DNA of 64,000 nt from an uncultured Actinomycetota bacterium (GTDB lineage: Bacteria; Actinomycetota; Actinomycetes; Mycobacteriales; Mycobacteriaceae): assembly GCA_963826365.1 (NCBI GenBank), contig CAWGXA010000014.1, forward strand, positions 285 through 64,284, given 5' to 3'. This document shows positions 1,649-17,355 of this stretch, one piece after another. Within the stretch, counting starts at the first letter, position 1. The number at the start of each line of letters is the position of its first letter. The notes beneath the pieces are model-generated. The model saw only the letters and a list, made by a program, of their open reading frames with translations. It searched no databases and was not told the origin of the DNA. The translations under genes and the position numbers were made by a program.

Positions 1649-2124
1649 GCACTCGCCGTAATCGTTACGGTACCAAGGGAATCCGCCGATGCGACTTTAC
1701 CCAGCGGCGCAGCTTGATCGCGGCATCGTTGCAGCCGCACGCTGTACGGTGTCGCGGCCAGGAGATGAAAGAAGTTGTCCGAGGGTATCCAGCCCGGCGC
1801 GTCGATAGACACCGTTTCCAGTAGCGGCGACCAAACGATCTCCTCGGTGACCTCCAAGCCATAGAGCCGGCGGAGATCCTCCGGCTGTCGCTTAAGGAAT
1901 GTCCATTGGAGGCCGTCGTGGTCGGCGGAAAGGGTACAGGCGAATGCGGGCACCGGATCCAGCTCAAGAGCGTGGAGTGTTTCGATCCAAAGATCAAGGT
2001 AGCAATTGGTTTCCGGCCTGATCCGCTGGCCCGCATGACTGAAATGTGATTGGTATCCCCTGGGGCTGGCAGAGATCTGCAGGGCCGGCTCCGGCAGGCC
2101 GACTGCTACCGCGCGTGGCATCAC
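1645..2124 (-). pseudogene. DUF1839-family protein, shortened (probable internal deletion)
   Basis: PETNCYLDLWIETLHAL...DGLQWTFLK..EDLRRLYGLEV matches the DUF1839 N-terminus; similarity is lost after about residue 105; only 159 aa. Confidence 0.65.
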
Positions 2125-2366
2125 GCAGACGACTTTAGGCCTTCGACTACCTGCTCGATGTTGCGTATCGAAGCGAAGGTGGACTTCTTGAGCACTTCAT
2201 CGGGGAACTCGATGTCGAATGCATCCTCAATCCCAAGCATGACGTTGACCGACGCATGCGATGTCAGGCCGAGCTCGTAGAGGTCGGCCTCACTGTCCAC
2301 CTCGCGTGGATCGACTGCCAAACGGCCATGCGCAGCTAGGACGTCACGAATCCGGTCCTGTATCAC
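2121..2366 (-). CDS. Acyl/aminoacyl carrier protein
   Basis: 81 aa from GTG 2366 behind a GAGGAG SD; DLYELGLTSHASVNVMLGIEDAFDIEFPD carrier-protein helix with the Ser attachment site. Confidence 0.9.
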   Translation of the reverse strand: MIQDRIRDVLAAHGRLAVDPREVDSEADLYELGLTSHASVNVMLGIEDAFDIEFPDEVLKKSTFASIRNIEQVVEGLKSSA

Positions 2367-2957
2367 GCTTCTCCTCACATTTGTGCCGTGCCTGTTAGCC
2401 AGTGTTGGGTTCAGCAACATCGTAGAGGCGCGGCCCTGGTGTACAGATGCGGACATGACCGCATTCGGTTTGGGTGTCGATCATACTGGACTTGACCATC
2501 TAGGCTGCGACGATGGGGGTTGTCCGCGGCCGGACAGTTCGATCTCTGAGGCGAGACGGTGCAGAGGTCCTTGGCGTCCCCGATCTCGAGTCCTCAGAAC
2601 CGGTTTCGGCCCGGATCCAGCCCCTGGTCCCTGCCCGCGCCACCGATGCCACTGCGGTTGGGCCAGTAGGAACCGATGTCGCAGGCGATGCATCGACGCT
2701 CTGACGACCAGGAGGGCCTGACGCATCTCGACTGGGTCAACGAAGATCTCCCTCGGCTCGGGCATGAGAACCTGATTGAGCACTGCCGGCTGAGCACTCG
2801 GTGGGGCGTCGATGGTCAGCTTCACGAGGAGCGGCCTGCAAGGAGGCCGGCTTCATCTCATTTGGCTGGGAAGAGCCTGAAATATCTTGCCGCACAACGG
2901 TAGCCGAGCTTCCTCTCTTGCTGAATGTGCGCTGCAAACGGTAACCACAGCGGGCCG

Positions 2958-4879: not shown

Positions 4880-6583
4880 TCAGACTTCCGTGAGCGGACC
4901 GCTCGGCTTGGTCGTCGCCGACCAGGGCGCCAGGGACACCGGCGAGGTGGCGGCCGGGGCAGCGGGGCCGAGCAGCCAGGTGAGTTCTGCAGCGATGGCT
5001 TCGAAGACGACGGGGCGCTGCCAGCACCGGCCCATCGTTTGGTCGACGTAGTCGGCGCCAGGGACCTCGACGACGCGAATGACGCCCGACTCGGTCACGC
5101 TGCGCACCCGCCGAGCCAGGCGGTCCTGCAGGTACACCAGACCGTCGTCGCCCTCGGTGAAGATCAGTGCGGCGCGCCTGCCCTGACGGACCAGGTCGTC
5201 TAGCCACTCACCGGCCGGCGGGCGGATGCCCCGCTCGTCCTCGTCGTCCCAGCGCCCTTCGGCCGCCGCCCGCTTGATGTCGAGGATCTCTGGCATCCGG
5301 CGCGCTCGGGTGTCCCAGATGAGCGCCTCGACGGGGTCGCCCTGCTGCCAGTACAGCGGCGGGTTCAGGACGACCAGTCCCGCAACGTCGGTCGCCCGCG
5401 CCGCGGCCAGCGCCGACCAGGAACCGGAGCACAAGCCGCCGAGGACCACCCGTCGTCGCGGGTTCTCACTCAGCGCCTCGACCAGCCGGGTGATGTCATC
5501 TACGGCGTGGGCATCACCGGGCCGACCAGGCACGGAAGGGCCGTCCGGACTCTCTCCCCATCCGCGCAGGTCGACCCGCAGCGTCGCCCGGCCGACCGTC
5601 GTCAGGTAGCGCGCCAGCTCCACCCACGCCCGACCCGGGCCGGTGTGCGGGTCTGACCCGCTGTTGACCAGGACATACACATCGTCGGGCACGGTGGTCA
5701 CCGGCGCGGCCGTCGTCAGCACTCCCACCAGCCGGTCTGGACCGAGCGTCACGAACCGTTCGAAGAGCGGCCGGCCGCGATGGTGCACCGCGGTGGCCGC
5801 ACGCGCGTCGCCGGCGCCGGCTGGAGTCGCGATCTGGAGGCCGTCGATCCAGTCCGCGATGGCCAGGACCAGGCCCGATTCGAAGGTCGCATCCTCCGAA
5901 GGTCGTGACATGAACTCCGGGACCGCATCGTTATCGAGTCCGACGGCGAAGGAGGGCACGTCAGGAGGTTGCGGAGCCGGCAACGAGCTGATCTCGTCGA
6001 GCAAAGCGTCAGGGAAGTAGTAGCCACCGACCGCGATGCCGCCGAGGTCCTCCGGCGCTCGAAGGCCGATCATCTTCAACGCCCGCACCAGCTGGCGGCC
6101 GGATTGTGACTGCGCCACGGATACGATCCCGGCTGCCCCGAGTTCGGGACCGTCCAGCAGCGCGAAGAGGGCGCCCAGCTGAGCACCAACCACGACGACA
6201 TGCTGAACTTCCTCCTCCTGCGTCAGATGCGCGACGGCGGTGGGCAGGACCGAGCGCCAGGGCGCGAGGCGCTGCAACGACTCGGCTGCGCCGCCGCTGT
6301 CACCGGTACCCGGATAGTCGACCCGAAGCGTGGTGATGCCGCGGGTCGCAAGCGTCTCAGCCAGCATGCGCCAGAACCGATGACTGCTGGAGTAGGCGTA
6401 TCCGGCGGGCGGGAGGATGACGACCCCGACGTCCGACCGGAGCGCCGGCCGGGTGAGCCACCCGGCAATTGCAGAGAACTCGGGCTCCTGCTCCGGTGGT
6501 GAGAGCCACAGCCCCGACGTCTGCGTAGCCGCGCTGTATCCGACGTCCGCCCCCGATGGGCTCGGGCAAGATTTGGCACTCAT
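4880..6583 (-). CDS. Two-domain alpha/beta hydrolase-fold protein
   Basis: Two repeats of the fold: RVDYPGTGDS...VGAQLGA and RVDLRGWGES...GGLCSGSW. Confidence 0.8.
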   Translation of the reverse strand: MSAKSCPSPSGADVGYSAATQTSGLWLSPPEQEPEFSAIAGWLTRPALRSDVGVVILPPAGYAYSSSHRFWRMLAETLATRGITTLRVDYPGTGDSGGAAESLQRLAPWRSVLPTAVAHLTQEEEVQHVVVVGAQLGALFALLDGPELGAAGIVSVAQSQSGRQLVRALKMIGLRAPEDLGGIAVGGYYFPDALLDEISSLPAPQPPDVPSFAVGLDNDAVPEFMSRPSEDATFESGLVLAIADWIDGLQIATPAGAGDARAATAVHHRGRPLFERFVTLGPDRLVGVLTTAAPVTTVPDDVYVLVNSGSDPHTGPGRAWVELARYLTTVGRATLRVDLRGWGESPDGPSVPGRPGDAHAVDDITRLVEALSENPRRRVVLGGLCSGSWSALAAARATDVAGLVVLNPPLYWQQGDPVEALIWDTRARRMPEILDIKRAAAEGRWDDEDERGIRPPAGEWLDDLVRQGRRAALIFTEGDDGLVYLQDRLARRVRSVTESGVIRVVEVPGADYVDQTMGRCWQRPVVFEAIAAELTWLLGPAAPAATSPVSLAPWSATTKPSGPLTEV

Positions 6584-6860: not shown

Positions 6861-6944
6861 TACGGGCGCTGGCCCAGGCGGCTGGGGCTGAAGTTCTGGT
6901 TCGACAGGCTCCCGAGGTCCGGGGCGAGGGCCAGGCCCTCCTGC

Positions 6945-7101
6945 GATGACCGTGCCGAACGGGGCAGCAGCGGGAACATGTCGGCGATGTCTCCGCGCGT
7001 CTGGTCGACCAACCACAGCAGCTCGCATCGGTCTGCGGCGGCCTCCACGATCTGCTGATCGGCACAGACCGTGGCCCATAGGCGACCGCGACGGCTGGAC
7101 G
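6945..7101 (-). pseudogene. N-terminal relic of a third ATP-grasp paralog
   Basis: RPAVAVAYGPRSVPI/QQIVEAAADRCELLWLVDQ...DMFPLL/FGTVI over two frameshifts, aligning to RPLVAVGYGPRCVPVMQLAEAAAGLCDLLWMID...LLNRFGAVV of 13267-14541. Confidence 0.8.
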
Positions 7102-7156: not shown

Positions 7157-8698
7157 GTGCAGCACCTGCGAGAAGGCGTGACGGACCACGGCGTGCTCGG
7201 TGCGGTGCTGGAGCACGCCGATCGGGCCCCGGATCGGCCCGCGGTCAAGGATCTGGATCGCGCGCTGACCAGAGGCGAGCTGCGCGGCGCAGCAGGGAGA
7301 GTGGCCGCCGGCTTACTCCAGAAAGGCGTCGAGCCCGGGGATCGGGTTGCCCTGCTGATCGGCAACTCGGTCGACTTCGTGGTCGCGGCACTGGGCTGCC
7401 TGTGGGCGGGAGTCACGTTCGTTCCACTGGCGGTCACCGATCCAGATCTCCGCCGTGCGCAGATCGTGGCCGACTGCCGGCCCGCACAAGTGATCACCGC
7501 GGGCACGGACCAAACGGCGCCATCGGGACTTCCGGTCGGCACCGCGTGGACCTCCCTTTCGGCGTTGAGCGCCGCAGACGGGCCCCCGCCACCACCCGTG
7601 ACGGGCCCGGTCGCCTACATCATTTACACGTCGGGGACGACCGGCATCCCCAAAGGCGTGCAGATTTCACCGGCGGCCTTTGTCACCGCAGTCGAAGCAT
7701 GCGCCGACGCCGTGGGACTCACCGCGGACGACCGTTGCCTCTGCGTTTCGCCGGTGCACTTCGACGGGTCCTTCTCGGCGATGTTTCCGCCGCTCGTGCG
7801 CGGCGTCCCGCTCGTCATTCCGGACCGGGAAGCGCTCCTGTTCCCTCGCAGGTTCTTCTCGATTGTCGCCGGCGAGGGGATCACGGCGACCAGCTTCTCG
7901 CCGAGCTACCTCAGGTTGCTCCGGTCCAGCGGCCGTTTGGCGCAGTTGGCTGACACCCCGCTGAGAGTGATGGCCCTGGGCGGCGAAGCGCCGGCCACGG
8001 CCGATATCAGGGCGGTGTGGGCCGCCAATCCTGAACTGCGGGTGGTGAATCGGTACGGCCCGACCGAGACGACCATCGCCGTCGCCCATCTGGAGCTGAC
8101 GCCCGAGTTGCTCGACGCGGGACAGATACCGATCGGTCAACCTCATCACGGGAGCTCGTTCCACCTCATTGATGAGCACGGTGGGCTGGTGGATCGTCCT
8201 GGAGTGGTCGGCGAGCTGTACATCGGCGGACCGCAGCTGATGGCTGGATATCTGAACGACCCGACGCGGAGCGCAGCTGTGCTGCGGACCGACGTTGTCG
8301 ACGGAACCACCCTCTACCGCACTGGTGACCTCGTGTTCCGCGACGACCGCGGCAACTACGTCTACGCGGGCCGTTCGGACCGCGTCATCAAGCGACACGG
8401 GGTGCGGATGTCGCTGGTCGAGGTGACCGAGGCGCTCGGCGGCACCGACGGGGTCGCATCCGCGGCATGCACGACCTTCGACCTGGAGGGCGGATTGGGG
8501 GTCGTCGCATTCGTGGTGCCGGACGGTGAGCTCACCCCGCTCGCGGTCCGCCAGGCCGCCAGCGAGCGACTCCCCGAAACGATGCTGCCCGATCAATTCG
8601 TCTTAGTCGCCAACTTGCCCTTGACGTCTTCCAGCAAGGTCGATGAGCGACGGCTGCTGAACGAGGCTGGCTTGTCTCCGCCAAACGAAGGGGCCTGA
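7157..8698 (+). CDS. Stand-alone amino-acid adenylation enzyme (NRPS A-domain/DltA-like)
   Basis: YIIYTSGTTGIPKG (A3), FDGS (A4), NRYGPTETT (A5), YRTGD (A7), GRSDRVIKRHGVR (A8), LPLTSSSKVD (A10); no T or C domain. Confidence 0.9.
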   Translation: MQHLREGVTDHGVLGAVLEHADRAPDRPAVKDLDRALTRGELRGAAGRVAAGLLQKGVEPGDRVALLIGNSVDFVVAALGCLWAGVTFVPLAVTDPDLRRAQIVADCRPAQVITAGTDQTAPSGLPVGTAWTSLSALSAADGPPPPPVTGPVAYIIYTSGTTGIPKGVQISPAAFVTAVEACADAVGLTADDRCLCVSPVHFDGSFSAMFPPLVRGVPLVIPDREALLFPRRFFSIVAGEGITATSFSPSYLRLLRSSGRLAQLADTPLRVMALGGEAPATADIRAVWAANPELRVVNRYGPTETTIAVAHLELTPELLDAGQIPIGQPHHGSSFHLIDEHGGLVDRPGVVGELYIGGPQLMAGYLNDPTRSAAVLRTDVVDGTTLYRTGDLVFRDDRGNYVYAGRSDRVIKRHGVRMSLVEVTEALGGTDGVASAACTTFDLEGGLGVVAFVVPDGELTPLAVRQAASERLPETMLPDQFVLVANLPLTSSSKVDERRLLNEAGLSPPNEGA

Positions 8699-8803
8699 GC
8701 CGTCCGTGTCGTGGCAACACAGTTATATGGAGATCGACCCGCTGTGCCGAGTCCTTCCACGAGAACCTGCTTGACCTCAACCCGGCCGGACATACTGGAC
8801 AAT

Positions 8804-9418
8804 ATGTACATTCCCGCCCATTTCGCCGCCGACGAGCAGGCCGTCGACGACCTGTTGACTCACCACGGTGCCGCTGACCTGATCACTGCAACACCGCGGG
8901 GCGTGGTCGCTACCATGCTGCCGTTCGTCTATGACCCGGGCATGAGAACCCTTCGTGGTCATCTCGCCCGCAACAATGACCAGTGGCGGCGCCCGGTGGT
9001 TGGCGAGGCTCTGGTCATCGTGCGGGGACCAGATGCGTACATTTCCCCGGCCTGGTATCCGAGCAAGGGCGAGCACGGACGTGTGGTGCCCACTTGGAAC
9101 TACGTCACTGCGCATGTCTATGGGCGACTCGCAGTGCACGATGACCCGGCCTGGGTCGAACAGAATGTGCGTGATCTAACCGACCGCCATGAGGCTGGGC
9201 GACCGCAATCATGGTCCGTCGACGACGCGCCGCCACAGTTCATCGAGGGTCAACTACGCGCCATTGTGGGAGTGGAATTGCTGATCACCCGCATCGAGAC
9301 CAGTTTCAAGCTCAGTCAGAATCGACCAGCCGCTGACGTCGATGGCGTGATCTCAGGATTAATCGCCAACGGACACGAAGACGCTGCCCAAGCGGTGCAG
9401 CGAGCGCGACCGGCATGA
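8804..9418 (+). CDS. PaiB/KtzT family ('FMN-binding negative transcriptional regulator') protein
   Basis: MYIPAHF start, GHLARNN, YISPAWY, VPTWNY, FKLSQN. Confidence 0.9.
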   Translation: MYIPAHFAADEQAVDDLLTHHGAADLITATPRGVVATMLPFVYDPGMRTLRGHLARNNDQWRRPVVGEALVIVRGPDAYISPAWYPSKGEHGRVVPTWNYVTAHVYGRLAVHDDPAWVEQNVRDLTDRHEAGRPQSWSVDDAPPQFIEGQLRAIVGVELLITRIETSFKLSQNRPAADVDGVISGLIANGHEDAAQAVQRARPA

Positions 9419-9592
9419 GATCGACTTCGCTTCTTAATGATGGCCCGCACGCAGCGCCTAACCTCGCATTGCCGCGGTCACCTGAGGACGGGTGAGCTGG
9501 TTCCGGCGCGGCCTTTGACAAGCAGTTCACGGCGGGCACGCGTGCGGTAGGAATCGGCGGTGGGAGCGCGGTGCCTAGGCTACGATCGCTGG

Positions 9593-10987
9593 GTGCAAGC
9601 GAGGGCAACCGGCGCGACGTCGGGGGGACATTACGAGCAGCTAGTCCGGCGCCAGCGTGCCGAATTGCAAGACGCGTACTTGAAGGGCGTGCGCCGGCTG
9701 CGATGGGACGCAGGGCGTCTCGCCGCAGAACGCGAACGGCTTCTTCGGGAGCTGCTGATGTATGCCGCTGAGCACTCGCCGTTCTGGCGGGAACGACTGG
9801 CAGGCCACGACCTGGCGAACTTCACCGAGGCCGACCTCCCCTCGCTGCCAATCCTGACCAAGGACGAGATGATGACGGAGTTCGACCGGATTCTCACCGT
9901 CCCCGGGTTGACCCGCGCCCGCGTCAAAGAACACATCGATTCGCTGGACGGAGACCGGTACATCGACGACGAGTACCGGGCAATCGTCAGCTCTGGATAT
10001 GCCGGAACCGAGGCCTACCACGTCTACGGCTGGGACTCGTTCGTCACCTTCGTTATGCAGGGCTCCCGGTGGACCGGGCGCCGAGGCGAAGATCCGGCGG
10101 CGGTATTGGCCCAGTGCTTCAGTTGCAGCGCCAGGCATGAATCAGGGGCGTTCTACGCCTTCAGCAGCTTCGAGGGCGGCGGTCCGACGTCGCACTGCTT
10201 CGATGCCACACTCCCCCTGGACGTCATCGTCGACCGTCTCAACAACATCCGCCCTTCGGTGCAGGCCCTCCAAGGATGGCCGAGCCTCATCTGGGAGCTG
10301 GCTTCCGAGGCGAAGCAAGGACGACTCACCATCACACCGACCTGGGTCAGCGTGGCGGGAGAACTCTGCACTGCGCCCGTAAGAGAGGCAGTGCGGTCCG
10401 CGTGGGGCATCGAGGCTTCCGAGTTCTGGGGCTGCTCAGAGGGGACCTACGCGTTCCCCTGCGGCGTCGGAGAAGGCAAGCACGTCGCCGACGATCTGGT
10501 CATCCTCGAGCCGGCGGATGCTGACGGCAACGTCGTACCCTACGGGCAGCCTGCCGAACGGATGCTGTTGACCAACCTGTTCAACCCGGTACAGCCGCTG
10601 ATCCGCTACGACCTCATCGACGCGGTGACGATGACCGACGAGCCGTGCCCATGCGGTTGCGCTCATCGTCGCATCACATCGGTCAACGGTCGGATCAATG
10701 GAGTGTTCGAGTACGAAGGCGGTGCCGTGGTGCCCCGCGCGGACTTCGAGCAGACTGTCGTTGCCACCCCCGGCGTCGTCAACTTCTTCATCGGCCAGAC
10801 GCAGGGTGGTGTCGACGTGTCCGTCGTGACCGATGGTTCCTCCGACCTCCAGCGTCTTCGGGAGGACCTGATCGACGTACTCCGCCGGCACGGCGGGCCG
10901 GAGTCGGACGTCACTGTGCTCGAGGTCGATTCCATCAAACGACTGTCGAGAGGAAAGTCGAAGCAGTTCGACACCGAGGCGATCTAG
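9593..10987 (+). CDS. Phenylacetate-CoA ligase (PaaK/CapK-like) family AMP ligase
   Basis: SPFWRERL, LPILTKDEMM, GWPS, AGE, WGCSEG, LTNL..QPLIRYDL; start at GTG 9593 behind a TACGAT -10 (leaderless). Confidence 0.8.
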   Translation: MQARATGATSGGHYEQLVRRQRAELQDAYLKGVRRLRWDAGRLAAERERLLRELLMYAAEHSPFWRERLAGHDLANFTEADLPSLPILTKDEMMTEFDRILTVPGLTRARVKEHIDSLDGDRYIDDEYRAIVSSGYAGTEAYHVYGWDSFVTFVMQGSRWTGRRGEDPAAVLAQCFSCSARHESGAFYAFSSFEGGGPTSHCFDATLPLDVIVDRLNNIRPSVQALQGWPSLIWELASEAKQGRLTITPTWVSVAGELCTAPVREAVRSAWGIEASEFWGCSEGTYAFPCGVGEGKHVADDLVILEPADADGNVVPYGQPAERMLLTNLFNPVQPLIRYDLIDAVTMTDEPCPCGCAHRRITSVNGRINGVFEYEGGAVVPRADFEQTVVATPGVVNFFIGQTQGGVDVSVVTDGSSDLQRLREDLIDVLRRHGGPESDVTVLEVDSIKRLSRGKSKQFDTEAI

Positions 10988-12264
10988 CGGCCGGCCATGG
11001 CCTTGTCCAGCGCCTGGTCGATGTCATCGATGATGTCGTCGATGTGCTCGATCCCGATGGACAGCCGGATCGTCTCCGGCCGGATACCGGCCTTCATCAG
11101 CTCCTCGTCGGACAGCTGGCGGTGGGTGGTGGAAGCCGGATGGATGGCCAGGGTCTTGGCGTCTCCCAGATTGAGCAGCCGCTTGACGAGCTGGAGCGCA
11201 TCGAAGAAGGCCAGGCCCGCCTCGTAGCCCCCCTCGGCCCCGAAGGTGACGATGGACGGTACGCGCCCGTGGAGGTAGCGCTCGACCAGGTGGTGGTAGG
11301 GGTGGTCCGGGAAGCCGGCGAAGCTCACCCAGGCAACCCGGGGGTCGGCGGCCAAGTAGTCGGCCACCGCCCGGGCGTTAGCCTCGTGACGCTCAAGTCG
11401 CACGGCCATCGTCTCGAGGCCCTGGAGCAGCATGAAGGCGTTGAAGGGGGAGAGGGTGGCTCCGCTGTTGCGCAGCTGGGTTGAGCGGGCCCGCACGATG
11501 AAGGGCCGCTCGGGAAAGTCGCGGGCGAAGACGACGCCGTGGAAAGCGGGCTCGGGCTGGTTGAACATCGGGAAGCGGTCGGGATAGTCGGCCCACGGGA
11601 ACCGGCCGCCGTCCACGATGGCCCCACCGAGCGTGGTGCCGTGGCCGCCGACGAACTTGGTCAGCGAGTGGACGACCACATCGGCCCCGTGCTCTAAAGG
11701 CTTGAGCATGAGCGGGGTGGCCACCGTGTTGTCCACGATGAGGGGGACGCCGGCCGCGTGGGCCACGGCGGCCACCGCCTCGAGGTCCACGATATTGCCA
11801 GCCGGGTTACCGATGGTCTCGCAGAAGACGGCGCGGGTGTTCTCGTCGATGAGTGGGGCGATCGACTCGGCTCGGTCGTCGACGGCGAAGCGGGCCTCGA
11901 TGCCCAGGGTGGGCAGCACGTGGGCGAAGTAGGTGAAGGTGGCCCCGTAGAGCTGGGGCGCCACCACGAAGTTCGAGCCTGCGCTGGCTACCGTCAGGAT
12001 GGCGTAGCTGACGGCGGCCATACCTGAAGCCACCACCAGGGCCGCTGTACCTCCTTCGAGAGCGCAGATGCGTTGCTCGAGGACGTCCAAGGTCGGGTTG
12101 TTGAGCCGGTTGTAGTGGAAGCCGGGCGTCTCCAGGTCCAGCACGGCGCCGGCGTGTGCCGCGTCGATGAAGTCGTGGGCAACCGTCTGGTAGATGGGCA
12201 CGGCCACGGCCCGCGTCCCGTCGGGTGTGTAGCCACCGTGAATGGCAATGGTCTCGTCGCGCAT
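10984..12264 (-). CDS. metY: O-acylhomoserine sulfhydrylase/aminocarboxypropyltransferase (MetY-like PLP enzyme)
   Basis: VPIYQT, YNRLNNPT, ETIGNP, DNT, HSLTKFVGGHG (PLP Lys), NLGDAK, HPASTTHRQL, IRLSIGIE. Confidence 0.9.
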   Translation of the reverse strand: MRDETIAIHGGYTPDGTRAVAVPIYQTVAHDFIDAAHAGAVLDLETPGFHYNRLNNPTLDVLEQRICALEGGTAALVVASGMAAVSYAILTVASAGSNFVVAPQLYGATFTYFAHVLPTLGIEARFAVDDRAESIAPLIDENTRAVFCETIGNPAGNIVDLEAVAAVAHAAGVPLIVDNTVATPLMLKPLEHGADVVVHSLTKFVGGHGTTLGGAIVDGGRFPWADYPDRFPMFNQPEPAFHGVVFARDFPERPFIVRARSTQLRNSGATLSPFNAFMLLQGLETMAVRLERHEANARAVADYLAADPRVAWVSFAGFPDHPYHHLVERYLHGRVPSIVTFGAEGGYEAGLAFFDALQLVKRLLNLGDAKTLAIHPASTTHRQLSDEELMKAGIRPETIRLSIGIEHIDDIIDDIDQALDKAMAGR

Positions 12265-12267
12265 GGC

Positions 12268-13263
12268 TCAGGCGCTCCTCTTCTCGATGGTGCCTAACAG
12301 CCTATTCGGGATGGTGCCCAACAGATTGGCGTACAGACGCAAGGCCGCGCCCCGCCACGGCCAGGGGGCGCGGGCGCAGACCTCGTCGAAGGGGAAGGCG
12401 GCCACCAGGTCCGGATCCCGCTCACCGCCCACCACCCGCTCGTGCAGCCGGCGGAGCCCGTCCCAGTCCGAACCGGCCACGCAATCCCTTGGGAGGCAGG
12501 GCAACTCGTCGCGCTCGTGGCCGGCGTAGCGCCGCACGTCCCGGACGTACTCGCGCACGAGGCTCGAGGGATCGTACTCGGGATGACACTGGACCAACAC
12601 GACCTCGGACCGGCCAACCGTTCTCGTGGCCACGCTCCACCCCACCTCCTCCGACTGCAGGGCCACCGCGTAGCCGGCGGCGACCACCGCCTCTGCGGGC
12701 ACGGCGTTGAGCCGCGAGTGGGGCAGCACGACGGGACCGCCGAACCCGGCGGCCAGCGGGTGAGTCGGGTCGGCCTGCTGGGCGAAGACGCCGGTGCACT
12801 TGACCGGCAGGGTGGTCCGTTCAACGCCGTCGAAGACGGCAAGGGCGGCGTGGGCCGACAGGCAGGACAGCACCATGGCCGGCACGTTCTCGCTCCCCCA
12901 CTTCAGCAGGCCGTGCAGATCGGACCAGTAGGGCTCGTCCTCGATGCGGGACTCGATCGGGTTGGCGCCGGTCACCACCAGCAGGTCCGGGGGGTCCGAG
13001 GTGATGTCGTCGAGGGGACGGTACTCGGCGGCGATACGGGCCCGGATCCGCTCGCCCCGGGGCACCCCGGCCATGGTGTGGCGGGTCAGGGCGACCGTCT
13101 CACACCCGGACCCGGCGTCCAGCAGGCCAACGAACTGTCGCTCGGTGGCGCCGAAGGCGGCGTCGGGCATGTTGTTGACCAGGGCGCACGTCCATCGCAC
13201 GGGCCCCTCGGCCCCGTCCGCCGCCGCCCCCGCGTCGTGGGCCCCGGCCAGTCGGACGCCCAC
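12268..13263 (-). CDS. metA: Homoserine O-acyltransferase, MetA (HTS) fold
   Basis: LVNNMPDAA, TERQF, VTGANP, PYW, SCLSAHAAL (Cys nucleophile), PHSR, QCHPEYD (His-Glu). Confidence 0.85.
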   Translation of the reverse strand: MGVRLAGAHDAGAAADGAEGPVRWTCALVNNMPDAAFGATERQFVGLLDAGSGCETVALTRHTMAGVPRGERIRARIAAEYRPLDDITSDPPDLLVVTGANPIESRIEDEPYWSDLHGLLKWGSENVPAMVLSCLSAHAALAVFDGVERTTLPVKCTGVFAQQADPTHPLAAGFGGPVVLPHSRLNAVPAEAVVAAGYAVALQSEEVGWSVATRTVGRSEVVLVQCHPEYDPSSLVREYVRDVRRYAGHERDELPCLPRDCVAGSDWDGLRRLHERVVGGERDPDLVAAFPFDEVCARAPWPWRGAALRLYANLLGTIPNRLLGTIEKRSA

Positions 13264-13266
13264 CGC

Positions 13267-14541
13267 TCAATGCCTCACGTCGGTGTAGGTCACAGTGACC
13301 TCCTGGTGGAGCAGCCGGTAGGCCATCTGCAACTGCTCCTCGTTGTCGGTCGAGCCGACCACGGCCACGATGTGGTTGCCGGAGCCGTCCCGCCAGTCGA
13401 GGGCGGCCCCCGGAGCCTGGTGGACGCTCACCGTGTCCACCTCGGCGTGGTCGGTGAAGTCGTTGATGCCCTCGATGGCCGTCACCGTGGCCGAGACGGT
13501 CGGCGGCTGCAGGAAGAAGCGGTAGCCGATACGGTCGGTGGCCACGGGCCCGTCGACGGACACCGACTCGCCCAGGGCCACCCGCAGGGTTAGGTCGAGC
13601 AGGCTGACGCCGGCGGCCCGCTCCAGCATCTCGGGCACACCGCCGCCCAACCGCCCGTTGACCTCGATGATGCGGGGGCCGTCGGGTGTGAACTTGACCT
13701 CGGTGTGCAGGCACCCGGTACGAACCCCGAGGGCGTCGATGGCCCGGGTGGCTAGGTCCAGGACGGCCGAGCGGCTCGCAGCATCGAGGGCGGCGGGGAT
13801 GAAGAACCCGGTCTCACGGAAGTTTCCGGCCGGCGGAAAGCGGCCGGTCAGGGCCAGGTGGCTGATGGCGCCGTCGGCCACCACGCTCTCGACCGACACG
13901 TAGCCGGCGTAGGGGTCGCTGGCCCGGGCCGGATCGTCGGCCAGGTAACCCTCGAGGACCATATCGGGGCGGCCCGGGCCGAGGGCGTCGAGCAGCTTCT
14001 CGAGCTCGGCACCGTCGCGGGCCAGGAAGGTGTTGCGGCTGCCCTGGGCCGAGCGGGGCTTGAGGACGGCGGGCCACCCCACCTCTGCCTCGACGGCCAA
14101 GAGCTCGCGCGCGGACTGGTCGGGGCGGACGAGGTGGCAGGGGGGCATGTCGAGGCCGGCCGCGGCGAGGGCCCAGCGTTGGCGGGCCTTGTCGGTGAGG
14201 GTGGCGGCAGTCGCCCGGCTGTGGAAGGGTAGGACCAAATCCTCTGCCACACAAGCAAGTTCGACCATACCGGCGTCGAGGTAGGTGGTGATGCCGTCGG
14301 GCTCCCAGTCGGCCAGGGTCTTGACCGCCTGCTCGGTGCTCATGCCGCCGAGGTCGACAACGGCGCCGAACCGGTTGAGGAGACCGGCCATCTCGCCCAT
14401 CCCCGGCACGGACGTGTCGATCATCCACAGCAGGTCGCACAGGCCGGCGGCCGCTTCGGCCAGCTGCATCACTGGAACGCAACGCGGCCCGTAGCCCACC
14501 GCCACCAATGGCCGAACCCGTCCGGTCGTGTAATCCGTCAT
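13267..14541 (-). CDS. ATP-grasp amino-acid ligase, paralog 2
   Basis: DKARQR, WPAVLKPRSAQGS, VLEGYL, SVES, LHTEVKFTPDGPRIIEVNGRLGGG. Confidence 0.9.
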   Translation of the reverse strand: MTDYTTGRVRPLVAVGYGPRCVPVMQLAEAAAGLCDLLWMIDTSVPGMGEMAGLLNRFGAVVDLGGMSTEQAVKTLADWEPDGITTYLDAGMVELACVAEDLVLPFHSRATAATLTDKARQRWALAAAGLDMPPCHLVRPDQSARELLAVEAEVGWPAVLKPRSAQGSRNTFLARDGAELEKLLDALGPGRPDMVLEGYLADDPARASDPYAGYVSVESVVADGAISHLALTGRFPPAGNFRETGFFIPAALDAASRSAVLDLATRAIDALGVRTGCLHTEVKFTPDGPRIIEVNGRLGGGVPEMLERAAGVSLLDLTLRVALGESVSVDGPVATDRIGYRFFLQPPTVSATVTAIEGINDFTDHAEVDTVSVHQAPGAALDWRDGSGNHIVAVVGSTDNEEQLQMAYRLLHQEVTVTYTDVRH

Positions 14542-14545
14542 GTGC

Positions 14546-16382
14546 TCAGCCGATCACGGCCTCGACGCAGGCCTGGGCGTCGTAGACGGCCCGGAGGCGG
14601 CTGCGGGGCGAGGGCAGGTAGTGGGTGAAGTAGCGCACTCCCTCGGTGAGCACGCCCAGCACGGAGAGGTTGGGCTGGAGCCGGCCCTCGGTGTCGTAAG
14701 GGTGGAATTCTTCATTGATGGCCACGCTGCCCACGGGCGTGTCACCGTAGGTGAGCTGGGTCAGCCTTCCCTTGGCGTAAAGACGGTTGAGCAGGGGCGA
14801 GCCCGACCGGGCCAGCGAGGGCATGTCGAGATAGCCCCGCACCACCCCGTCGACCGTCACGGCCGTCGGCTCGTCGAGGGCCGTGGAACTCAGGCGGATG
14901 CCGTCGGGGCATGGGGGCCAACTCCGGGTCAGGTCCGAGCGGGATGCGCACCACTCCTGCGTCGAGCAGCCCCAGCAGCTGCTGGGAGCGCATGGGTGGC
15001 ACGCCCGCCTCCAGGCGGTTGATGCGGCCGCGGACGTTGGACTGAAACTCGACGTAGGAGTCAAGGGAGAGGCCACCGAACTCGATGACCGAACGCAGCT
15101 GGTCCCGGAGGATGCGCAGCACCTCCTGGGCCGCCTTGACCGGGCTCCCCCCGGGTCGCAGGGCCTCGGTGAGGTCGTCCTCGATCATGTCGTAGGCCTG
15201 GCCCTGGTAGTCGGCGGCCGATGTGTAGTGGCGGTCTGACCCGGCGAAGAGGTGGGTGGCCGGGTCGAAGCGCCCGTAGCGCGGCTCGAGACCGTCGACG
15301 ACCTTCTCGTAGTGCCCGTCGATCCAGCCTTGGCGGAGGAGGGTGCGGACCTCGGTCGACTGGACGTCGCCTCCGGCCAGCAAGGCGGCCTGGATGTAGT
15401 AGCGCGCTTGCATCTCGGCGAAGATGAGCGGGAGAAGCTCGGCGCGGAAGTCCACGTGGCGCCGCACCTGCGACCCGCCCGGATTGGTCAGCGCCGCGAA
15501 CTCCTCGGGGGTGCACACCACGGGCTGGTACTGGCCGTAGGGGTCGACGCCGGTGGCCGACTTGGCGCAGTACGGCGCGCCCGAGCGCGAGTAGAGGGTG
15601 ATGGTCGGCTCCCGGCCCGAGGGCAGGTAGCGCATGCGGTCGGCCCGGTCGCACCGGTCCTCGAAGGTCCCGCCTCGTCCGATGGTGAGGGCGGTGAGGA
15701 CGTCGAAGCCGACCAGGCCCATGCCGGCCACGGCCACCGAGGATCCGGCCGGAGCGCTCTGGTCGAGGCACTCGATGGGGTAGGGCTGCAGGTAGTGCAC
15801 GCCCCCGTCGGCCCCGCGCTCCTGGTTCCAGGTGTGCCCCGAGGTCAGCACCACGTGGTCGACGGTGAGGGTCGTGCCGTTGTCGAGCAGCACCGCCTCG
15901 CGCCCCTGGAGGGCCTGCGAAATGTCGACGGCTGCTGCATAGTGTCGGACGATCTCGAGGTTGGGCGGGGCGTAGGCGACCAGCGTGTCATAGAACCAGG
16001 CCAGGTACTCGCCCATCAACCGCCGTGGCAGGTAGTCGGTGGGCAGGATGGGGTCACCCCCGGCGCCGATACGGCACTCGTAACCCACCCAGCGATAGCC
16101 GCGGACCACCGCCCACGGGTGCAGGCCCACGGCGTAGGGGGGGAGGGCGTCCCCGTCGGGGGCGACGTAGAGGGAGAGCTGACCGCAGGCGTTGTTGAGC
16201 ACCAAGAAGTCGGGCTGCTCGGCGGAGTAAACCCCGCCTCCGAGCTGAGCGGGCTCGACCAGGTGCAGCCGCACCGGCGTCCCCACCTGCCGGGCCCGGC
16301 TCACCGTGCGCTCCATGACGCACAGACCCCACGGGCCGAGCCCGACGATGGCCATCTCGATCATCGGACGCGTCCCATCCAC
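14546..16382 (-). pseudogene. FAD/NAD(P)-binding flavoprotein (CreE/FzmM-like family) split by one frameshift near 14913-14917
   Basis: IVGLGPWG, LNN..QLSLY, VVLTSGH, VAGMGLVGFD, LYSRSG; ORF 14742-16382 continues in the frame of 14546-15076 (DGIRLSSTAL...LGVLTEG); total span 1837 nt = 3n+1. Confidence 0.8.
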
Positions 16383-16749
16383 GCCGAAGAATGCTCGCGC
16401 GAGGAGCGGCCGAACCCGTCACGTTGTTTGCGCGCACACGTGTTCAGGCACCTACGTGGCATTTCTGCCTGTGTGGCCACCAACGACATGTGCTCCTCCT
16501 AACGGAAGCAAGCCCAACCCGTGGGTTGTTGCGCCGACGCTTGGGTGCGAAGGTATGTGTATACCGATGGTGCACCTGAGAACGCAGCTTACATACCATT
16601 AGACGATAATAGAAGCGGATAGCCGATATTTAGTTTGTGCGAGTGCAGAAAGCATCAGCACCCAAGGAAGACTGAGTAGTGAACAGACCGCGCGGTTTTG
16701 TGAGGCAGTTCCCCGCGGAGATATCAGCCTGACCTGCGTGAGTGCGCGG

Positions 16750-17200
16750 TGCGGATGCTCGGGGTTGATCTTCACGAACGCGGTAGGTGGCGCACTTCGG
16801 TGGACATCGTTCCGGTCGCGTGTGTGGCGTCCGGCCTTAGTGCGGACTGGGTTGCGCTTGGGTAGGTGCTTGAGACCGACGGCAAATTCGCGGCAGTGTG
16901 GTCGAACTAGCTGGGTCGCACCACGGTCGAAAACTTCGTAGCGAGCCTGAGTCTGTTCACCACGTTGCCAGGGCTCAACACGGCGGTCTCAGATTCCACG
17001 ATCTCAGACACGTACGGGACGTGGCTGACCTACGACGGGATCGTTCCCAACAAGCTAGCGAAGGTCATGGGGCACGAAGATATCGCCACGACGATGCAGT
17101 CGTATGTTCGGCGAACCGAGGACCACGATGCGATGCGTAATCGTGACGCCGACCAATCGAATCGGAATGCTGCGGTTCTGCTGCCTGACTGGACAGGAGA
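16750..17200 (+). pseudogene. Tyrosine integrase C-terminal remnant
   Basis: GLIFTNAVGGALRWTSFRSRVWRPAL / HVARAQHGGLRFHDLRH / TYGTWLTYDG...VMGHEDIATTMQSY in three frames, with an internal stop; HxxR, H and Y catalytic residues visible. Confidence 0.85.
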
Positions 17201-17281
17201 ACGCAGTGTGGAGCAGACCAAACAAACCCGTCCCTGGCCTTCGATGCAGGTCAGGAGGCATCTGCCATCTCGTCCAACGCG

Positions 17282-17355
<74 letters not shown>

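What the first reader, a model, noticed from the sequence alone, without database searches (positions are those of the whole stretch)
10984..16382. Flavoprotein / ATP-grasp / MetA / MetY operon: candidate pathway to a gamma-substituted (aminooxy- or hydrazino-type) homoserine metabolite
Seen: four co-oriented genes separated by only 3-4 nt, embedded among carrier-protein and ligase genes rather than sulfur-uptake genes. Established: the D-cycloserine pathway pairs an O-acyltransferase (DcsE), a PLP sulfhydrylase homolog using an N-hydroxy nucleophile (DcsD), an N-hydroxylase and an ATP-grasp (DcsG). Rhizobitoxine RtxA uses an O-acetylhomoserine-sulfhydrylase domain to make a homoserine ether. 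CreE/FzmM flavoproteins N-oxidise aspartate. Inference: this operon follows the same logic one carbon longer. MetA acylates homoserine, the flavoprotein makes an N-oxidised nucleophile, MetY couples them, and the ATP-grasp ligates or cyclises the product. I do not recognise this combination as a characterised mycobacterial pathway.
Basis: partly seen in the sequence, partly recalled or inferred. Interest (0 to 1): 0.82.

Follow-up and report, generated by a model that had tools for sequence, protein, structure and literature searches.

The report
N-oxygenase plus MetA/MetY biosynthetic cassette
Four tightly packed genes in an environmental Mycobacterium are the core of an uncharacterised, horizontally mobile gene cluster found in many soil and peat Mycobacterium and Acidimicrobiia; it probably makes an N-oxygenated amino acid derived from homoserine, but its product is unknown.

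Summary
Four minus-strand genes separated by 3-4 nt encode a flavin N-monooxygenase, an ATP-grasp ligase, a MetA-type homoserine O-acyltransferase and a MetY-type O-acylhomoserine PLP enzyme. They sit among an A-domain, an ACP, a PPTase, ligase and hydrolase genes, in a decayed tRNA-Pro island.

MetA- and MetY-like sequence lies beside the flavoprotein gene in nearly all of about 75 sufficiently long related loci. These come from Mycobacterium and, with the block inverted, from Acidimicrobiia. All four genes are under purifying selection, and the low dS between the two classes indicates recent transfer.

The flavoprotein is a full-length homologue of the CreE/FzmM-type L-aspartate N-hydroxylase (PDB 8CP2). 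It lacks most aspartate-binding residues (R13W, R276Q, N413D, R577S) and has no CreD lyase partner. Its nearest subfamily sits beside diaminopropionate synthases and a Cys/Met-family PLP enzyme.

MetY looks like an ordinary O-acylhomoserine sulfhydrylase by sequence, so a sulfur nucleophile is not excluded. The ATP-grasp is lost in several loci. The "frameshift" is one extra C in a C5 run and is private to this assembly.

Verdict: an uncharacterised accessory biosynthetic cassette. The aminooxy product is unproven, and nothing supports a hydrazino product.

The parts
14546..16382 (-). Class B flavin N-monooxygenase (PF13454; CreE/FzmM family, non-aspartate clade). The likely start is 16364. 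The reading frame is broken by one extra C in the C5 run at 14912-14917.
   Evidence: It has FAD (GLGPWG) and NADPH (GMGLVG) motifs. The gene is an intact 605 aa in L001 and in the sampled homologues.
13267..14541 (-). ATP-grasp ligase of the L-amino-acid-ligase type (grasp1)
   Evidence: best PDB matches are 3VOT (L-amino acid ligase BL00235, E 7.5e-18) and BacD; NF002563 N-terminal part, 115 bits. It is deleted or absent in L035, L045, L048, L060, L098 and L099.
12268..13263 (-). MetA-family homoserine O-acyltransferase, divergent
   Evidence: PF04204 156 bits; NF003776 272 bits, below its cutoff of 358. The Cys134/His227/Glu229 triad is kept in 68 of 69 loci.
10984..12264 (-). MetY-type O-acylhomoserine aminocarboxypropyltransferase (PLP, fold type I)
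   Evidence: TIGR01326 578 bits, above its cutoff of 495; no equivalog cutoff is reached. Best PDB match 7KB0 scores 439 bits, against 413 bits for 4KAM MetC. It is 58 % identical to the nearest 50 %-cluster representative, with only 3 clade-specific deviations from the family consensus. dN/dS is 0.06-0.13.
9560..10987 (+). PaaK/F390-synthetase-like adenylate-forming ligase, convergent with MetY
   Evidence: NCBIfam NF045666, TIGR02304 and FlxY hits, all below cutoff. Present in 44 mycobacterial loci.
8711..9418 (+). FMN_bind_2 (PaiB-like) protein
   Evidence: PF04299, 195 bits. Present in 22 loci.
7157..8698 (+). Stand-alone amino-acid adenylation domain. Specificity code is D-G-S-S-A-G-R-I-A(-K).
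   Evidence: The code is conserved in 45 mycobacterial loci and is DGGGAGRIA in Acidimicrobiia. The gene is present in 61 loci from both lineages.
6893..7101 (-). Remnant of an ATP-grasp N-terminus
   Evidence: tblastn.
4880..6583 (-). Double alpha/beta hydrolase, possibly analogous to the two-hydrolase fusion of M. paraterrae
   Evidence: Hydrolase_4, two stretches. It shows only weak similarity (29 % over 140 aa) to the 599-aa M. paraterrae protein (L084), and it is that protein, not this one, that matches TIGR03101 and TIGR03100.
3359..4621 (+). Second ATP-grasp paralogue (40 % identical to grasp1), specific to this strain's version of the cluster
2121..2456 (-). Acyl/peptidyl carrier protein
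   Evidence: PF00550.
1645..2124 (-). Truncated DUF1839 (profile positions 2-87 of 313 only)
1238..1648 (-). AcpS-type phosphopantetheinyl transferase
   Evidence: PF01648 on the identical gene in L001.
16738..17140 (+). Frame-shifted remnant of a tyrosine recombinase C-terminus (HDLRH and GH..I.TT..Y motifs)
   Evidence: Read from the translations and the sequence. No Pfam scan was run on it.
17281..17355 (-). tRNA-Pro(CGG), the likely integration site of the island

Best explanation
The four genes are the core of an accessory, horizontally mobile biosynthetic gene cluster. They are not methionine housekeeping genes.

Proposed mechanism:
1. The MetA-type enzyme activates L-homoserine as an O-acyl ester. 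(Shown: family membership and an intact catalytic triad. Inferred: the substrate and the acyl donor.)
2. The MetY-type PLP enzyme replaces the acyl group at the gamma carbon with a nucleophile. (Shown: family membership and the PLP lysine. Inferred: the nucleophile.)
3. The CreE-family flavin monooxygenase N-oxygenates an amine that is not aspartate. That amine is either the nucleophile before coupling, which would give an N-O-C (aminooxy) or N(OH)-C link, or the amine-containing coupling product afterwards. (Shown: homology and the changed substrate pocket. Inferred: the substrate and the order of steps.)
4. The result would be a long, cystathionine/diaminopimelate-like, N-oxygenated diamino acid. 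The dedicated A domain, whose pocket is lined by very small residues plus one arginine, would activate it and load it onto the ACP. Further processing would involve the PaaK-like ligase, hydrolases, and in other strains a PhyH dioxygenase and an LLM oxidoreductase.
5. The ATP-grasp ligase is an optional tailoring step.
For: - Conservation: MetA- and MetY-like sequence lies beside the flavoprotein gene in nearly all of about 75 sufficiently long loci; 60 carry ATP-grasp, MetA and MetY as full-length matches. The genes are collinear in Mycobacterium and form an inverted block in Acidimicrobiia.
- The A domain co-occurs in 61 loci from both lineages, with a conserved code of DG(S/G/A)(S/G)AGR(I/V)(A/T).
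- Purifying selection acts on all four genes (dN/dS 0.06-0.39). dS is about 0.7-1.3 between the two classes, so the whole unit was transferred and then retained.
- The genomic location varies and the neighbours are BGC-type genes. In the window there is an integrase remnant next to tRNA-Pro.
- No SAM or other riboswitch lies upstream of the operon.
- The flavoprotein matches PDB 8CP2 (L-aspartate N-hydroxylase) over its full length, E 9e-59. The catalytic residues N62, R409, R412 and R416 are kept, but the Asp-binding residues are changed (W12, Q278, D421, S585), and no lyase gene is adjacent. Canonical homologues keep these residues and are followed by a lyase gene (residues defined in PMC10404684).
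- The clade with D at the 413 position lies in SbnA-SbnB-NMO-(cystathionine-gamma-synthase-like PLP)-BenE cassettes in Streptomyces and Frankia. SbnA/SbnB-like genes also precede the NMO in Deefgea, and probably in Rhizobium, where only tblastn and ORF positions were checked.
- Cys/Met-family PLP enzymes are known to handle a gamma C-O-N bond (canavanine gamma-lyase, PMC9533460).
- MetY scores higher against non-mycobacterial enzymes than against 4KAM MetC.
Against: - MetY is sequence-canonical: 58 % identical to the nearest general representative, with only F42L, G108A and D223P deviating from the family consensus. It is also the most constrained gene. This is what a plain sulfide-using homocysteine synthase would look like.
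- MetA plus MetY on their own are a complete, well-known route to homocysteine.
- In Acidimicrobiia an SsuD-like LLM lies beside the MetA-MetY operon, which hints at sulfur chemistry.
- No substrate, nucleophile or product has been observed. The order of steps is unresolved.
- The A-domain substrate prediction rests on my own motif-based reading of the specificity code.
- The link to the SbnAB cassettes holds only at the superfamily level for the PLP enzyme (29 % identity, a different subfamily).
Confidence: 0.45

Rival explanations
1. Sulfur route. MetA and MetY do their textbook job inside the cluster. They supply homocysteine, methionine (with methanethiol), or an S-substituted homocysteine or cystathionine-like thioether. 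This is then N-oxygenated by the flavoprotein, optionally ligated by the ATP-grasp, and activated by the A domain. The product would be a sulfur-containing N-oxygenated amino acid or peptide, with no N-O-C or N-C gamma link.
For: - The MetY sequence is canonical and under the strongest constraint.
- TIGR01326 is passed.
- An SsuD-like LLM sits beside MetA-MetY in Acidimicrobiia, and the mycobacterial LLM has a weak SfnG hit.
- The nearest solved ATP-grasp is BL00235 (3VOT). From memory it prefers Met or Leu as the N-terminal residue.
- The hydrophobic replacements W12 and F579 in the flavoprotein pocket could suit a thioether side chain.
- A cystathionine-like thioether would also fit the Arg-bearing A-domain pocket.
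Against: - No sulfate, sulfonate or sulfide assimilation genes, sulfur-carrier genes or sulfur transporter genes were seen in any annotated locus.
- The recurring pairing of this flavoprotein clade with Cys/Met-family PLP enzymes, in cassettes that otherwise only make diaminopropionate, is not explained by a need for sulfur.
- Mycobacteria already possess MetX/MetC (established knowledge, not checked in these genomes), yet the transferred MetA/MetY are kept under strong selection.
Confidence: 0.3
2. Nitrite or nitro route. As in the aspartate-nitrosuccinate pathway, the flavoprotein oxidises a primary amine stepwise to a nitro compound. Either nitrite is released for use elsewhere, or MetY installs or removes a nitro or hydroxylamino group at the gamma carbon.
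For: - The flavoprotein is homologous to an enzyme that carries out three successive N-oxidations (PMC10404684).
- The catalytic arginines and Asn are conserved.
Against: - No CreD/FzmL-type lyase is adjacent in any locus, whereas canonical homologues are immediately followed by one.
- The aspartate-binding residues are lost.
- No diazo-, hydrazine- or nitrosation-type enzymes are in the cluster.
Confidence: 0.08
3. Housekeeping methionine biosynthesis. MetA and MetY are simply the cell's homoserine-to-homocysteine enzymes and lie next to unrelated genes by chance.
For: - Both proteins fall in the standard families with intact catalytic residues.
- In Acidimicrobiia this MetY type is very common in metagenomes, and I could not check whether those genomes have another copy.
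Against: - The flavoprotein and the A domain stay linked to MetA/MetY across two classes and through rearrangement.
- Among mycobacteria the distribution is patchy and the genomic location varies; in the window the genes sit in a tRNA-Pro island.
- No equivalog cutoff is met by either protein.
- MetY scores lower against 4KAM MetC than against foreign enzymes.
- There is no riboswitch.
Confidence: 0.05

Closest known systems
Aspartate-nitrosuccinate (ANS) pathway N-hydroxylases CreE/FzmM (structure 8CP2/8CP5, Streptomyces sp. V2)
   Same: Full-length homology (about 30 % identity, E 1.6e-52 single sequence and 9e-59 profile). Both dinucleotide motifs are present. Asn62 and the Arg409/412/416 cluster are conserved, as is the aromatic residue stacking on the flavin.
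   Different: Asp-binding residues are replaced: R13W, R276Q, N413D, R577S and R266K. There is no CreD/FzmL lyase partner. The neighbours are MetA/MetY rather than diazo or hydrazine genes.
D-cycloserine pathway (DcsE O-acetyltransferase, DcsD PLP O-ureidoserine synthase, DcsA/B hydroxyurea supply, DcsG ATP-grasp); from established knowledge
   Same: The logic is the same: activate a hydroxy amino acid as an O-acyl ester, displace the ester with an N-oxygenated nucleophile on a PLP enzyme, with an ATP-grasp in the operon.
   Different: One carbon longer. The acyltransferase is of the MetA family, not the MetX-like family. The PLP enzyme is fold type I (gamma-replacement), not fold type II. The N-oxygenase is a flavoprotein rather than haem DcsA plus arginase DcsB. 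The ATP-grasp is dispensable in several loci. None of the parts was shown to be orthologous.
Direct-sulfhydrylation methionine module MetA + MetY
   Same: Both families are present with their catalytic residues. MetY passes TIGR01326 and is close to the family consensus.
   Different: The genes are embedded in, and co-inherited with, an N-oxygenase/A-domain/ACP cluster on mobile DNA. No equivalog threshold is reached. It is not the mycobacterial MetX/MetC pair.
SbnA-SbnB-flavoprotein-(CGS-like PLP)-BenE cassette of Streptomyces and Frankia (uncharacterised as far as my searches show); SbnA/SbnB-like genes also precede the flavoprotein in Deefgea and probably Rhizobium
   Same: The flavoprotein belongs to the same non-aspartate clade (Asp at the 413 position, Ser at 577). 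In Streptomyces and Frankia it is paired with a Cys/Met-family PLP enzyme and with an enzyme pair that builds an amino acid by substitution on an activated hydroxy amino acid.
   Different: That cassette uses serine-derived diaminopropionate and a CGS/CGL-type PLP enzyme (29 % identical to this MetY). It has no MetA, ATP-grasp, A domain or ACP. Its flavoprotein keeps R13 and R276.
Homoserine gamma-ether and gamma-amine forming PLP enzymes (RtxA of rhizobitoxine, LolC, CndF, Fub7) and canavanine gamma-lyase
   Same: These are MetY/CGS-superfamily enzymes that make or break gamma C-O, C-N or C-C bonds. Fub7 (8ERB) scores almost as high against this MetY as genuine sulfhydrylases do (421 against 428-439 bits). 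Canavanine gamma-lyase handles a C-O-N bond (PMC9533460).
   Different: No specific relationship to any of them was shown here. The chemistry of RtxA, LolC and CndF is cited from memory.
Exosortase-A-associated ligase/ACP/hydrolase-1/hydrolase-2 cassette (TIGR03098, TIGR03100, TIGR03101)
   Same: The A domain hits TIGR03098 (177-204 bits). The double hydrolase of M. paraterrae hits TIGR03101 and TIGR03100.
   Different: All scores are below the curated cutoffs. No exosortase system is nearby. The function of that cassette is itself unknown.

Membership tests
CreE/FzmM L-aspartate N-hydroxylase (ANS pathway) | Homologous three-domain class B flavoprotein with FAD and NADPH motifs | tested here: met
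   8CP2 aligned over residues 3-603, E 1.6e-52 (single sequence) and 9e-59 (profile). GLGPWG and GMGLVG motifs read from the sequence. PF13454, 103 bits.
CreE/FzmM L-aspartate N-hydroxylase (ANS pathway) | Aspartate-binding entry chamber (R13, R276, N413, R416, R577 in 8CP2; PMC10404684) | tested here: not met
   W12, Q278 (Q or E across the clade), D421 and S585 replace four of the five residues; only R424 is kept. W12, K268, D421 and S585 are invariant in 13 clade members.
CreE/FzmM L-aspartate N-hydroxylase (ANS pathway) | Adjacent CreD/FzmL-type lyase that releases nitrite | tested here: not met
   No lyase-family gene is in the window cluster or in the annotated loci L001, L082, L084 and L097-L099. 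Control homologues in Streptomyces are followed by a lyase gene.
O-acetylhomoserine/O-acetylserine sulfhydrylase (MetY, TIGR01326) | Score above the curated subfamily threshold, and the PLP-lysine motif | tested here: met
   578 bits against a cutoff of 495. The S-L-T-K-F motif aligns with 7KB0.
O-acetylhomoserine/O-acetylserine sulfhydrylase (MetY, TIGR01326) | Equivalog-level match to a characterised housekeeping enzyme | tested here: not met
   Best equivalog NF004757 scores 607 against a cutoff of 790. NF005872 scores 508 against 703.
O-acetylhomoserine/O-acetylserine sulfhydrylase (MetY, TIGR01326) | Uses sulfide as the nucleophile | not testable with these tools
   Sequence alone cannot tell. 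Only 3 clade-specific deviations from the family consensus were found.
Homoserine O-acyltransferase MetA (PF04204) | Family membership and the Cys-His-Glu catalytic triad | tested here: met
   PF04204, 156 bits. Cys134/His227/Glu229 are kept in 68 of 69 loci.
Homoserine O-acyltransferase MetA (PF04204) | Equivalog match (succinyl- or acetyl-specific MetA), homoserine as the acceptor | tested here: inconclusive
   NF003776 scores 272 against a cutoff of 358. TIGR01001 scores 103 and NF047918 scores 98, both far below cutoff. The position that determines the acyl donor aligns ambiguously (G-A-N-P-I-E).
L-amino acid ligase (ATP-grasp) | Homology to solved L-amino acid ligases | tested here: met
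   3VOT E 7.5e-18, BacD E 1.5e-12. The substrates are unknown.
D-cycloserine-type pathway | Orthologues of DcsA/DcsB (hydroxyurea supply), DcsD (fold type II PLP) and DcsE (MetX-like), plus an obligatory DcsG cyclase | tested here: not met
   No haem N-hydroxylase, arginase or PALP-type synthase lies within the operon. The PLP enzyme is fold type I and the acyltransferase is MetA-type. The ATP-grasp is lost in at least 6 loci. Only the logic is analogous.
NRPS-type carrier-protein pathway | Adenylation domain, carrier protein and PPTase encoded together | tested here: met
   TIGR01733 scores 310 bits, just under its cutoff of 317. PF00501/PF13193, PF00550 and PF01648 are present. The genes co-occur in most mycobacterial loci. 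No condensation domain was found.

The most novel reading that the evidence does not exclude
The cassette makes a heteroatom-linked, N-oxygenated mimic of cystathionine or diaminopimelate. A new, non-aspartate clade of CreE-family N-oxygenases supplies an N-hydroxy nucleophile. An otherwise ordinary-looking MetY enzyme couples it to O-acylhomoserine, forming an aminooxy (C-O-N) or N-hydroxy (C-N(OH)) bond. This would be an unprecedented route to an antimetabolite or metallophore that soil and peat Mycobacterium and Acidimicrobiia exchange by horizontal transfer.
Probability: 0.22. Interest if true: 0.85.

Novelty: new variant of a known kind. Interest (0 to 1): 0.62.

Why it matters
If the proposed coupling is right, three things follow:
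- The reach of MetY-type PLP enzymes would extend to N-O or N-N(OH) chemistry.
- A second functional clade of the CreE/FzmM N-oxygenase family would be defined, one that does not act on aspartate and does not feed nitrite formation.
- A widespread, mobile small-molecule pathway would be revealed in two abundant but poorly cultured groups of acid-soil and peat actinobacteria. Aminooxy and cystathionine/diaminopimelate-like amino acids are typically potent inhibitors of PLP enzymes or of cell-wall and methionine metabolism, so the product could be an ecological weapon or a metal chelator.

Even if MetY simply uses sulfide, the cluster remains an uncharacterised, strongly conserved pathway, and intact versions exist that could be expressed.

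Tried and rejected
- Literature: six full-text searches found no paper describing this gene set or the SbnAB-NMO-CGS cassette. They combined MetA/MetY/ATP-grasp, nitrosuccinate/homoserine, CreE/SbnA/diaminopropionate, canaline/aminooxy/nitroalanine, and gamma-replacement/N-oxygenase terms. One further search failed on term syntax.
- Real pseudogene: rejected as a conserved feature. The extra C lies in a homopolymer and is absent from L001 and from four independent metagenome contig sets.
- Aspartate as the flavoprotein substrate: rejected on pocket residues and on the missing lyase.
- Hydrazino product: no N-N-forming enzyme family is present in any locus.
- ATP-grasp as an essential cyclase: rejected because it has been deleted repeatedly.
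- PhyH as a halogenase: rejected, because it has an H-R-D motif. The gene is absent from the window anyway.
- Riboswitch control: none found, at either the gathering or the E-value threshold.
- ATP-grasp homologues on Kitasatospora and S. clavuligerus plasmids: they lie in NRPS-like surroundings without MetA, MetY or the NMO, and gave no functional lead.
- MetA homologues on plasmids: all are ordinary metA genes at no more than 34 % identity.
- Methylomagnum and Vibrio flavoprotein homologues: their contexts were uninformative.
- Search for a duplicated tRNA-Pro fragment marking the other island border: nothing above chance.
- Not attempted: structure prediction and fold search, because the sequence match to 8CP2 already covers the full length and the tools do not return coordinates for pocket analysis.

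Full report
**1. What is in the window.**

The window is a Mycobacterium chromosome segment. The evidence for this:
- It carries Ms1 sRNA and 6C RNA.
- It has a Cds1 equivalog (NF052478, 691 bits) and a class A PBP with a PASTA domain.
- It has Crp-, Nth-, MarP- and Acs-type genes further on.

On the minus strand between 10984 and 16382 lie four genes with gaps of 4, 3 and 3 nt:
- a PF13454 FAD/NAD(P)-binding protein;
- an ATP-grasp enzyme;
- a MetA-family (PF04204) acyltransferase;
- a MetY-family (PF01053, TIGR01326) PLP enzyme.

Around them are these genes:
- a PaaK/F390-synthetase-like ligase, convergent and overlapping MetY by 4 nt;
- an FMN_bind_2 protein;
- a stand-alone adenylation domain;
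- a double alpha/beta hydrolase;
- a second ATP-grasp paralogue;
- a carrier protein;
- a truncated DUF1839;
- an AcpS-type phosphopantetheinyl transferase;
- a short remnant of an ATP-grasp N-terminus.

Between the flavoprotein gene and tRNA-Pro(CGG) at 17281-17355 lies a three-frame remnant of a tyrosine recombinase (HDLRH and GH..I.TT..Y motifs). The cluster therefore sits in a decayed tRNA-Pro island. The observation as written is confirmed.

**2. The frameshift.**

The flavoprotein reading frame is broken by one extra C in a C5 run (14912-14917). Three lines of evidence show the break is private to this assembly:
- A metagenome contig that is 99.77 % identical over 21.3 kb (L001) has C4 and an intact 605-aa gene.
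- Contigs from four independent soil and peat runs all lack that base.
- The sampled homologues are full length.

The break is either a homopolymer error or a very recent private mutation. It is not a feature of the system. Conversely, L001 has a one-base deletion in the A-domain gene, which is intact in the window.

**3. Conservation.**

I scanned one genome per species with a profile of the flavoprotein. This gave 80 loci. Further loci were fetched through exact-protein look-ups.

tblastn with the window's proteins gave the following:
- About 75 loci have at least 4 kb of sequence beyond the flavoprotein gene. Nearly all of them carry MetA- and MetY-like sequence beside it.
- 60 of those loci have ATP-grasp, MetA and MetY as full-length single matches.
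- Most of the others have split matches, which are probably frameshifts in long-read MAGs.
- A few lack the ATP-grasp, and one locus lacks MetY (L078).

In Mycobacterium the order is flavoprotein, ATP-grasp, MetA, MetY. Hosts include sp. E787, UM_CSW, 94-17, M. paraense, M. paraterrae, Candidatus M. methanotrophicum and many MAGs. In 19 Acidimicrobiia MAGs the ATP-grasp-MetA-MetY block is inverted and convergent with the flavoprotein gene.

Other genes that travel with the core:
- The A domain is present in 61 loci from both lineages.
- ACP plus PPTase are present in most mycobacterial loci.
- In Mycobacterium the accessory genes are a PaaK-like ligase, a PhyH dioxygenase (H-R-D type), an F420-type LLM oxidoreductase, FMN_bind_2 and a fused hydrolase-2/hydrolase-1.
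- In Acidimicrobiia they are an amidohydrolase, an aldo-keto reductase, an SsuD-like LLM and a GNAT.

The genomic position differs between species. Only the window and L001 have the cluster next to Cds1 and PonA2.

Pairwise dN/dS values are 0.06-0.13 for MetY, 0.16-0.26 for the flavoprotein, 0.15-0.34 for the ATP-grasp and 0.21-0.39 for MetA. dS between the Mycobacterium and Acidimicrobiia copies is about 0.7-1.3. For the closer Acidimicrobiia locus this is no larger than between two Mycobacterium species, which indicates recent transfer between the classes.

The ATP-grasp is reduced to a remnant of fewer than 100 aa, or gone, in L035, L045, L048 and L060. It is absent in L098 and L099. The other three genes persist in these loci, except that L098 carries a 367-aa gene with no Pfam hit where the flavoprotein gene lies in the other loci.

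**4. The flavoprotein.**

Its only solved relative is 8CP2/8CP5, matched over the full length (E 1.6e-52 single sequence, 9e-59 profile). That structure is the Streptomyces sp. V2 L-aspartate N-hydroxylase, a CreE/FzmM-type enzyme that makes nitrosuccinate (PMC10404684). The paper defines:
- the catalytic core: Asn62, Arg266, Arg409, Arg412, Arg416;
- the aspartate entry chamber: Arg13, Arg276, Asn413, Arg416, Arg577;
- that N413E abolishes hydroxylation.

In the present clade Asn62 and Arg409/412/416 are kept. The other positions are replaced as follows: Arg13 by Trp, Arg266 by Lys, Arg276 by Gln or Glu, Asn413 by Asp, Arg577 by Ser and Val571 by Phe. W12, K268, D421 and S585 are invariant in 13 members.

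Streptomyces plasmid homologues at about 30 % identity keep the aspartate residues and are immediately followed by a lyase gene. The present clade never has one.

The homologues closest to it (33-38 % identity) share Asp at the 413 position and Ser at 577. Their contexts are:
- In Streptomyces and Frankia they lie in a conserved cassette of five genes. SbnA (TIGR03945, 407 bits, cutoff 350) and SbnB (TIGR03944, 379 bits, cutoff 327) come first. The flavoprotein, a cystathionine-gamma-synthase-like PLP enzyme and a BenE-family transporter follow.
- SbnA/SbnB-like genes also precede the flavoprotein gene in Deefgea.
- The same is probably true in Rhizobium, where only a tblastn hit and ORF positions were checked.

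My inference is that this clade acts on a substrate that is less anionic than aspartate and possibly carries a cationic group, such as a diamino acid. I also infer that its action is functionally tied to Cys/Met-family PLP chemistry.

**5. MetA and MetY.**

MetA is divergent. Its best match is NF003776 at 272 bits (cutoff 358), and it is about 30 % identical to solved MetA enzymes. It keeps the Cys134/His227/Glu229 triad in 68 of 69 loci. The position that determines the acyl donor aligns ambiguously.

MetY findings:
- It passes the TIGR01326 subfamily threshold but no equivalog threshold.
- Its best solved relative is 7KB0 (439 bits).
- 4KAM "MetC" scores lower, at 413 bits. From memory, 4KAM is the M. 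marinum housekeeping enzyme.
- The C-C-forming Fub7 scores 421 bits.
- An exhaustive search of 50 %-identity representatives gives a nearest representative at 58 % identity.
- Against 75 full-length representatives, the clade deviates from a consensus held by at least 75 % of them at only three positions: F42L, G108A (in the YGGT motif) and D223P.

So nothing in the sequence argues for a new nucleophile, and nothing argues against one. Family members with non-sulfur nucleophiles are equally similar.

No sulfur-assimilation genes or transporters were seen in any annotated locus. No riboswitch precedes the operon.

A search of the large protein collection shows that the 424-aa Acidimicrobiia form (83-88 % identity) is very common in soil metagenomes. 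In all three genomes inspected it lies inside the same cluster.

**6. The A domain.**

I read the specificity positions against the GrsA-PheA numbering. That reference sequence is from memory and the positions were anchored on the core motifs. The code is D235, G236, S239, S278, A299, G301, R322, I330, A331. It is conserved in 45 mycobacterial loci and becomes DGGGAGRIA in Acidimicrobiia.

The retained Asp235 indicates an alpha-amino acid. The run of very small residues plus an arginine at the pocket floor suggests a long substrate with a distal anionic group. This would fit a cystathionine- or diaminopimelate-like product of gamma-substitution with a carboxylate-bearing nucleophile. It is an inference, not a test.

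**7. Mechanism proposed.**

1. MetA O-acylates homoserine.
2. MetY displaces the ester at the gamma carbon.
3. The flavoprotein N-oxygenates a non-aspartate amine. One possibility is that it acts on the incoming nucleophile, giving an aminooxy or N-hydroxy link. The other possibility is that it acts on the amine-bearing product, by analogy with SbnAB followed by the flavoprotein.
4. The A domain loads the product onto the ACP for further tailoring and release.
5. The ATP-grasp is optional.

I give this family of readings 0.45, and about 0.22 to the specific N-O/N(OH)-linked version. The main rival (0.30) is that MetA and MetY simply supply homocysteine or a thioether amino acid to the cluster. 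Supporting it are:
- the canonical and most constrained MetY;
- the SsuD-like LLM in Acidimicrobiia;
- weakly, the nearest solved ATP-grasp, BL00235.

A nitrite/nitro route (0.08) and plain housekeeping (0.05) are less likely, for the reasons given in the rival entries.

**8. Comparison with known systems and novelty.**

- The flavoprotein belongs to the CreE/FzmM structural family. It fails two defining features of aspartate N-hydroxylases: the substrate chamber and the lyase partner.
- The cluster shares the logic of the D-cycloserine pathway, but none of the parts was shown to be orthologous.
- MetA and MetY are family members whose specific function is unresolved.
- The searches I ran found no description of this gene set.

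I rate it a new variant of a known kind: amino-acid antimetabolite- or metallophore-type clusters built from N-oxygenation plus PLP substitution.

Interest is 0.62. The conservation, the inter-class transfer and the new N-oxygenase clade are solid and testable. The chemistry that would make it exciting is not yet shown.

Noticed in passing
window 16738-17140 (+), next to tRNA-Pro 17281-17355 (-): A three-frame remnant of a tyrosine recombinase C-terminus (FRSRVWRPAL, RFHDLRHV and VMGHEDIATTMQSYV motifs). This marks the cluster as part of a decayed tRNA-Pro genomic island. No repeat of the tRNA 3' end was found within the window.
   Followed up: partly
L082, L097-L099 and 19 loci among L055-L081, compared with the mycobacterial loci: The same cluster occurs in Acidimicrobiia MAGs with amino-acid identities of 57-89 %. 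dS against the Mycobacterium copy is about 0.7-1.3, and for the closer locus it is no larger than between Mycobacterium species. This indicates recent horizontal transfer between two actinobacterial classes.
   Followed up: partly
L086 7909-13047; L091 8006-14369; L092 8028-14131; L094 7924-11788; L087 3457-7296: A conserved, apparently uncharacterised cassette of SbnA, SbnB, a CreE-family flavoprotein (Asp at position 413), a cystathionine-gamma-synthase-like PLP enzyme and a BenE transporter occurs in many Streptomyces and in Frankia. SbnA/SbnB-like genes also precede the flavoprotein gene in Deefgea and probably in Rhizobium. It may represent a diaminopropionate-based N-oxygenation pathway.
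   Followed up: partly
window 14907-16081, compared with L001: 15 of the 45 substitutions between the window and the 99.77 % identical contig L001 fall within 1.2 kb of the flavoprotein gene. This could be a recombination tract or locally relaxed constraint. It is unexplained.
   Followed up: no
window 6893-7101 (-), 1645-2124 (-), about 2500-3300: There are signs of local decay in this strain's copy of the cluster: a remnant of an ATP-grasp N-terminus, a DUF1839 truncated to the first 87 of 313 profile positions, and a stretch without a convincing gene. PhyH and LLM genes, present in many other mycobacterial loci, are absent here.
   Followed up: partly
L001 13772 (equivalent to window 8493): The sister contig L001 has a one-base deletion that truncates the A-domain gene, which is intact in the window. 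This is the mirror image of the flavoprotein frameshift and suggests homopolymer errors in these assemblies.
   Followed up: partly
L035, L045, L048, L060 (about 11830-12200); L098, L099: The ATP-grasp gene is deleted down to a remnant of fewer than 100 aa, or is absent, while MetA and MetY stay intact. The flavoprotein gene also stays, except in L098, where a 367-aa gene with no Pfam hit lies in its place.
   Followed up: yes
window 17417-18769 (-): The Cds1 ORF is 450 aa, but the NF052478 model matches only residues 97-450, and the gene call in L001 is 368 aa. The long N-terminal extension of the ORF is probably not translated.
   Followed up: no
window 43223-43522 (-) and 44664-44738 (+): Ms1 sRNA (239 bits) and a 6C RNA element (89 bits) confirm the mycobacterial origin of the window.
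   Followed up: no
L087 13024-17242 (Deefgea piscis plasmid): Beside the SbnAB-flavoprotein genes lies a second small cluster: an iron-containing redox enzyme family protein, DUF3419, SpeD, an antibiotic biosynthesis monooxygenase and a serine hydrolase. Its function is unknown.
   Followed up: no
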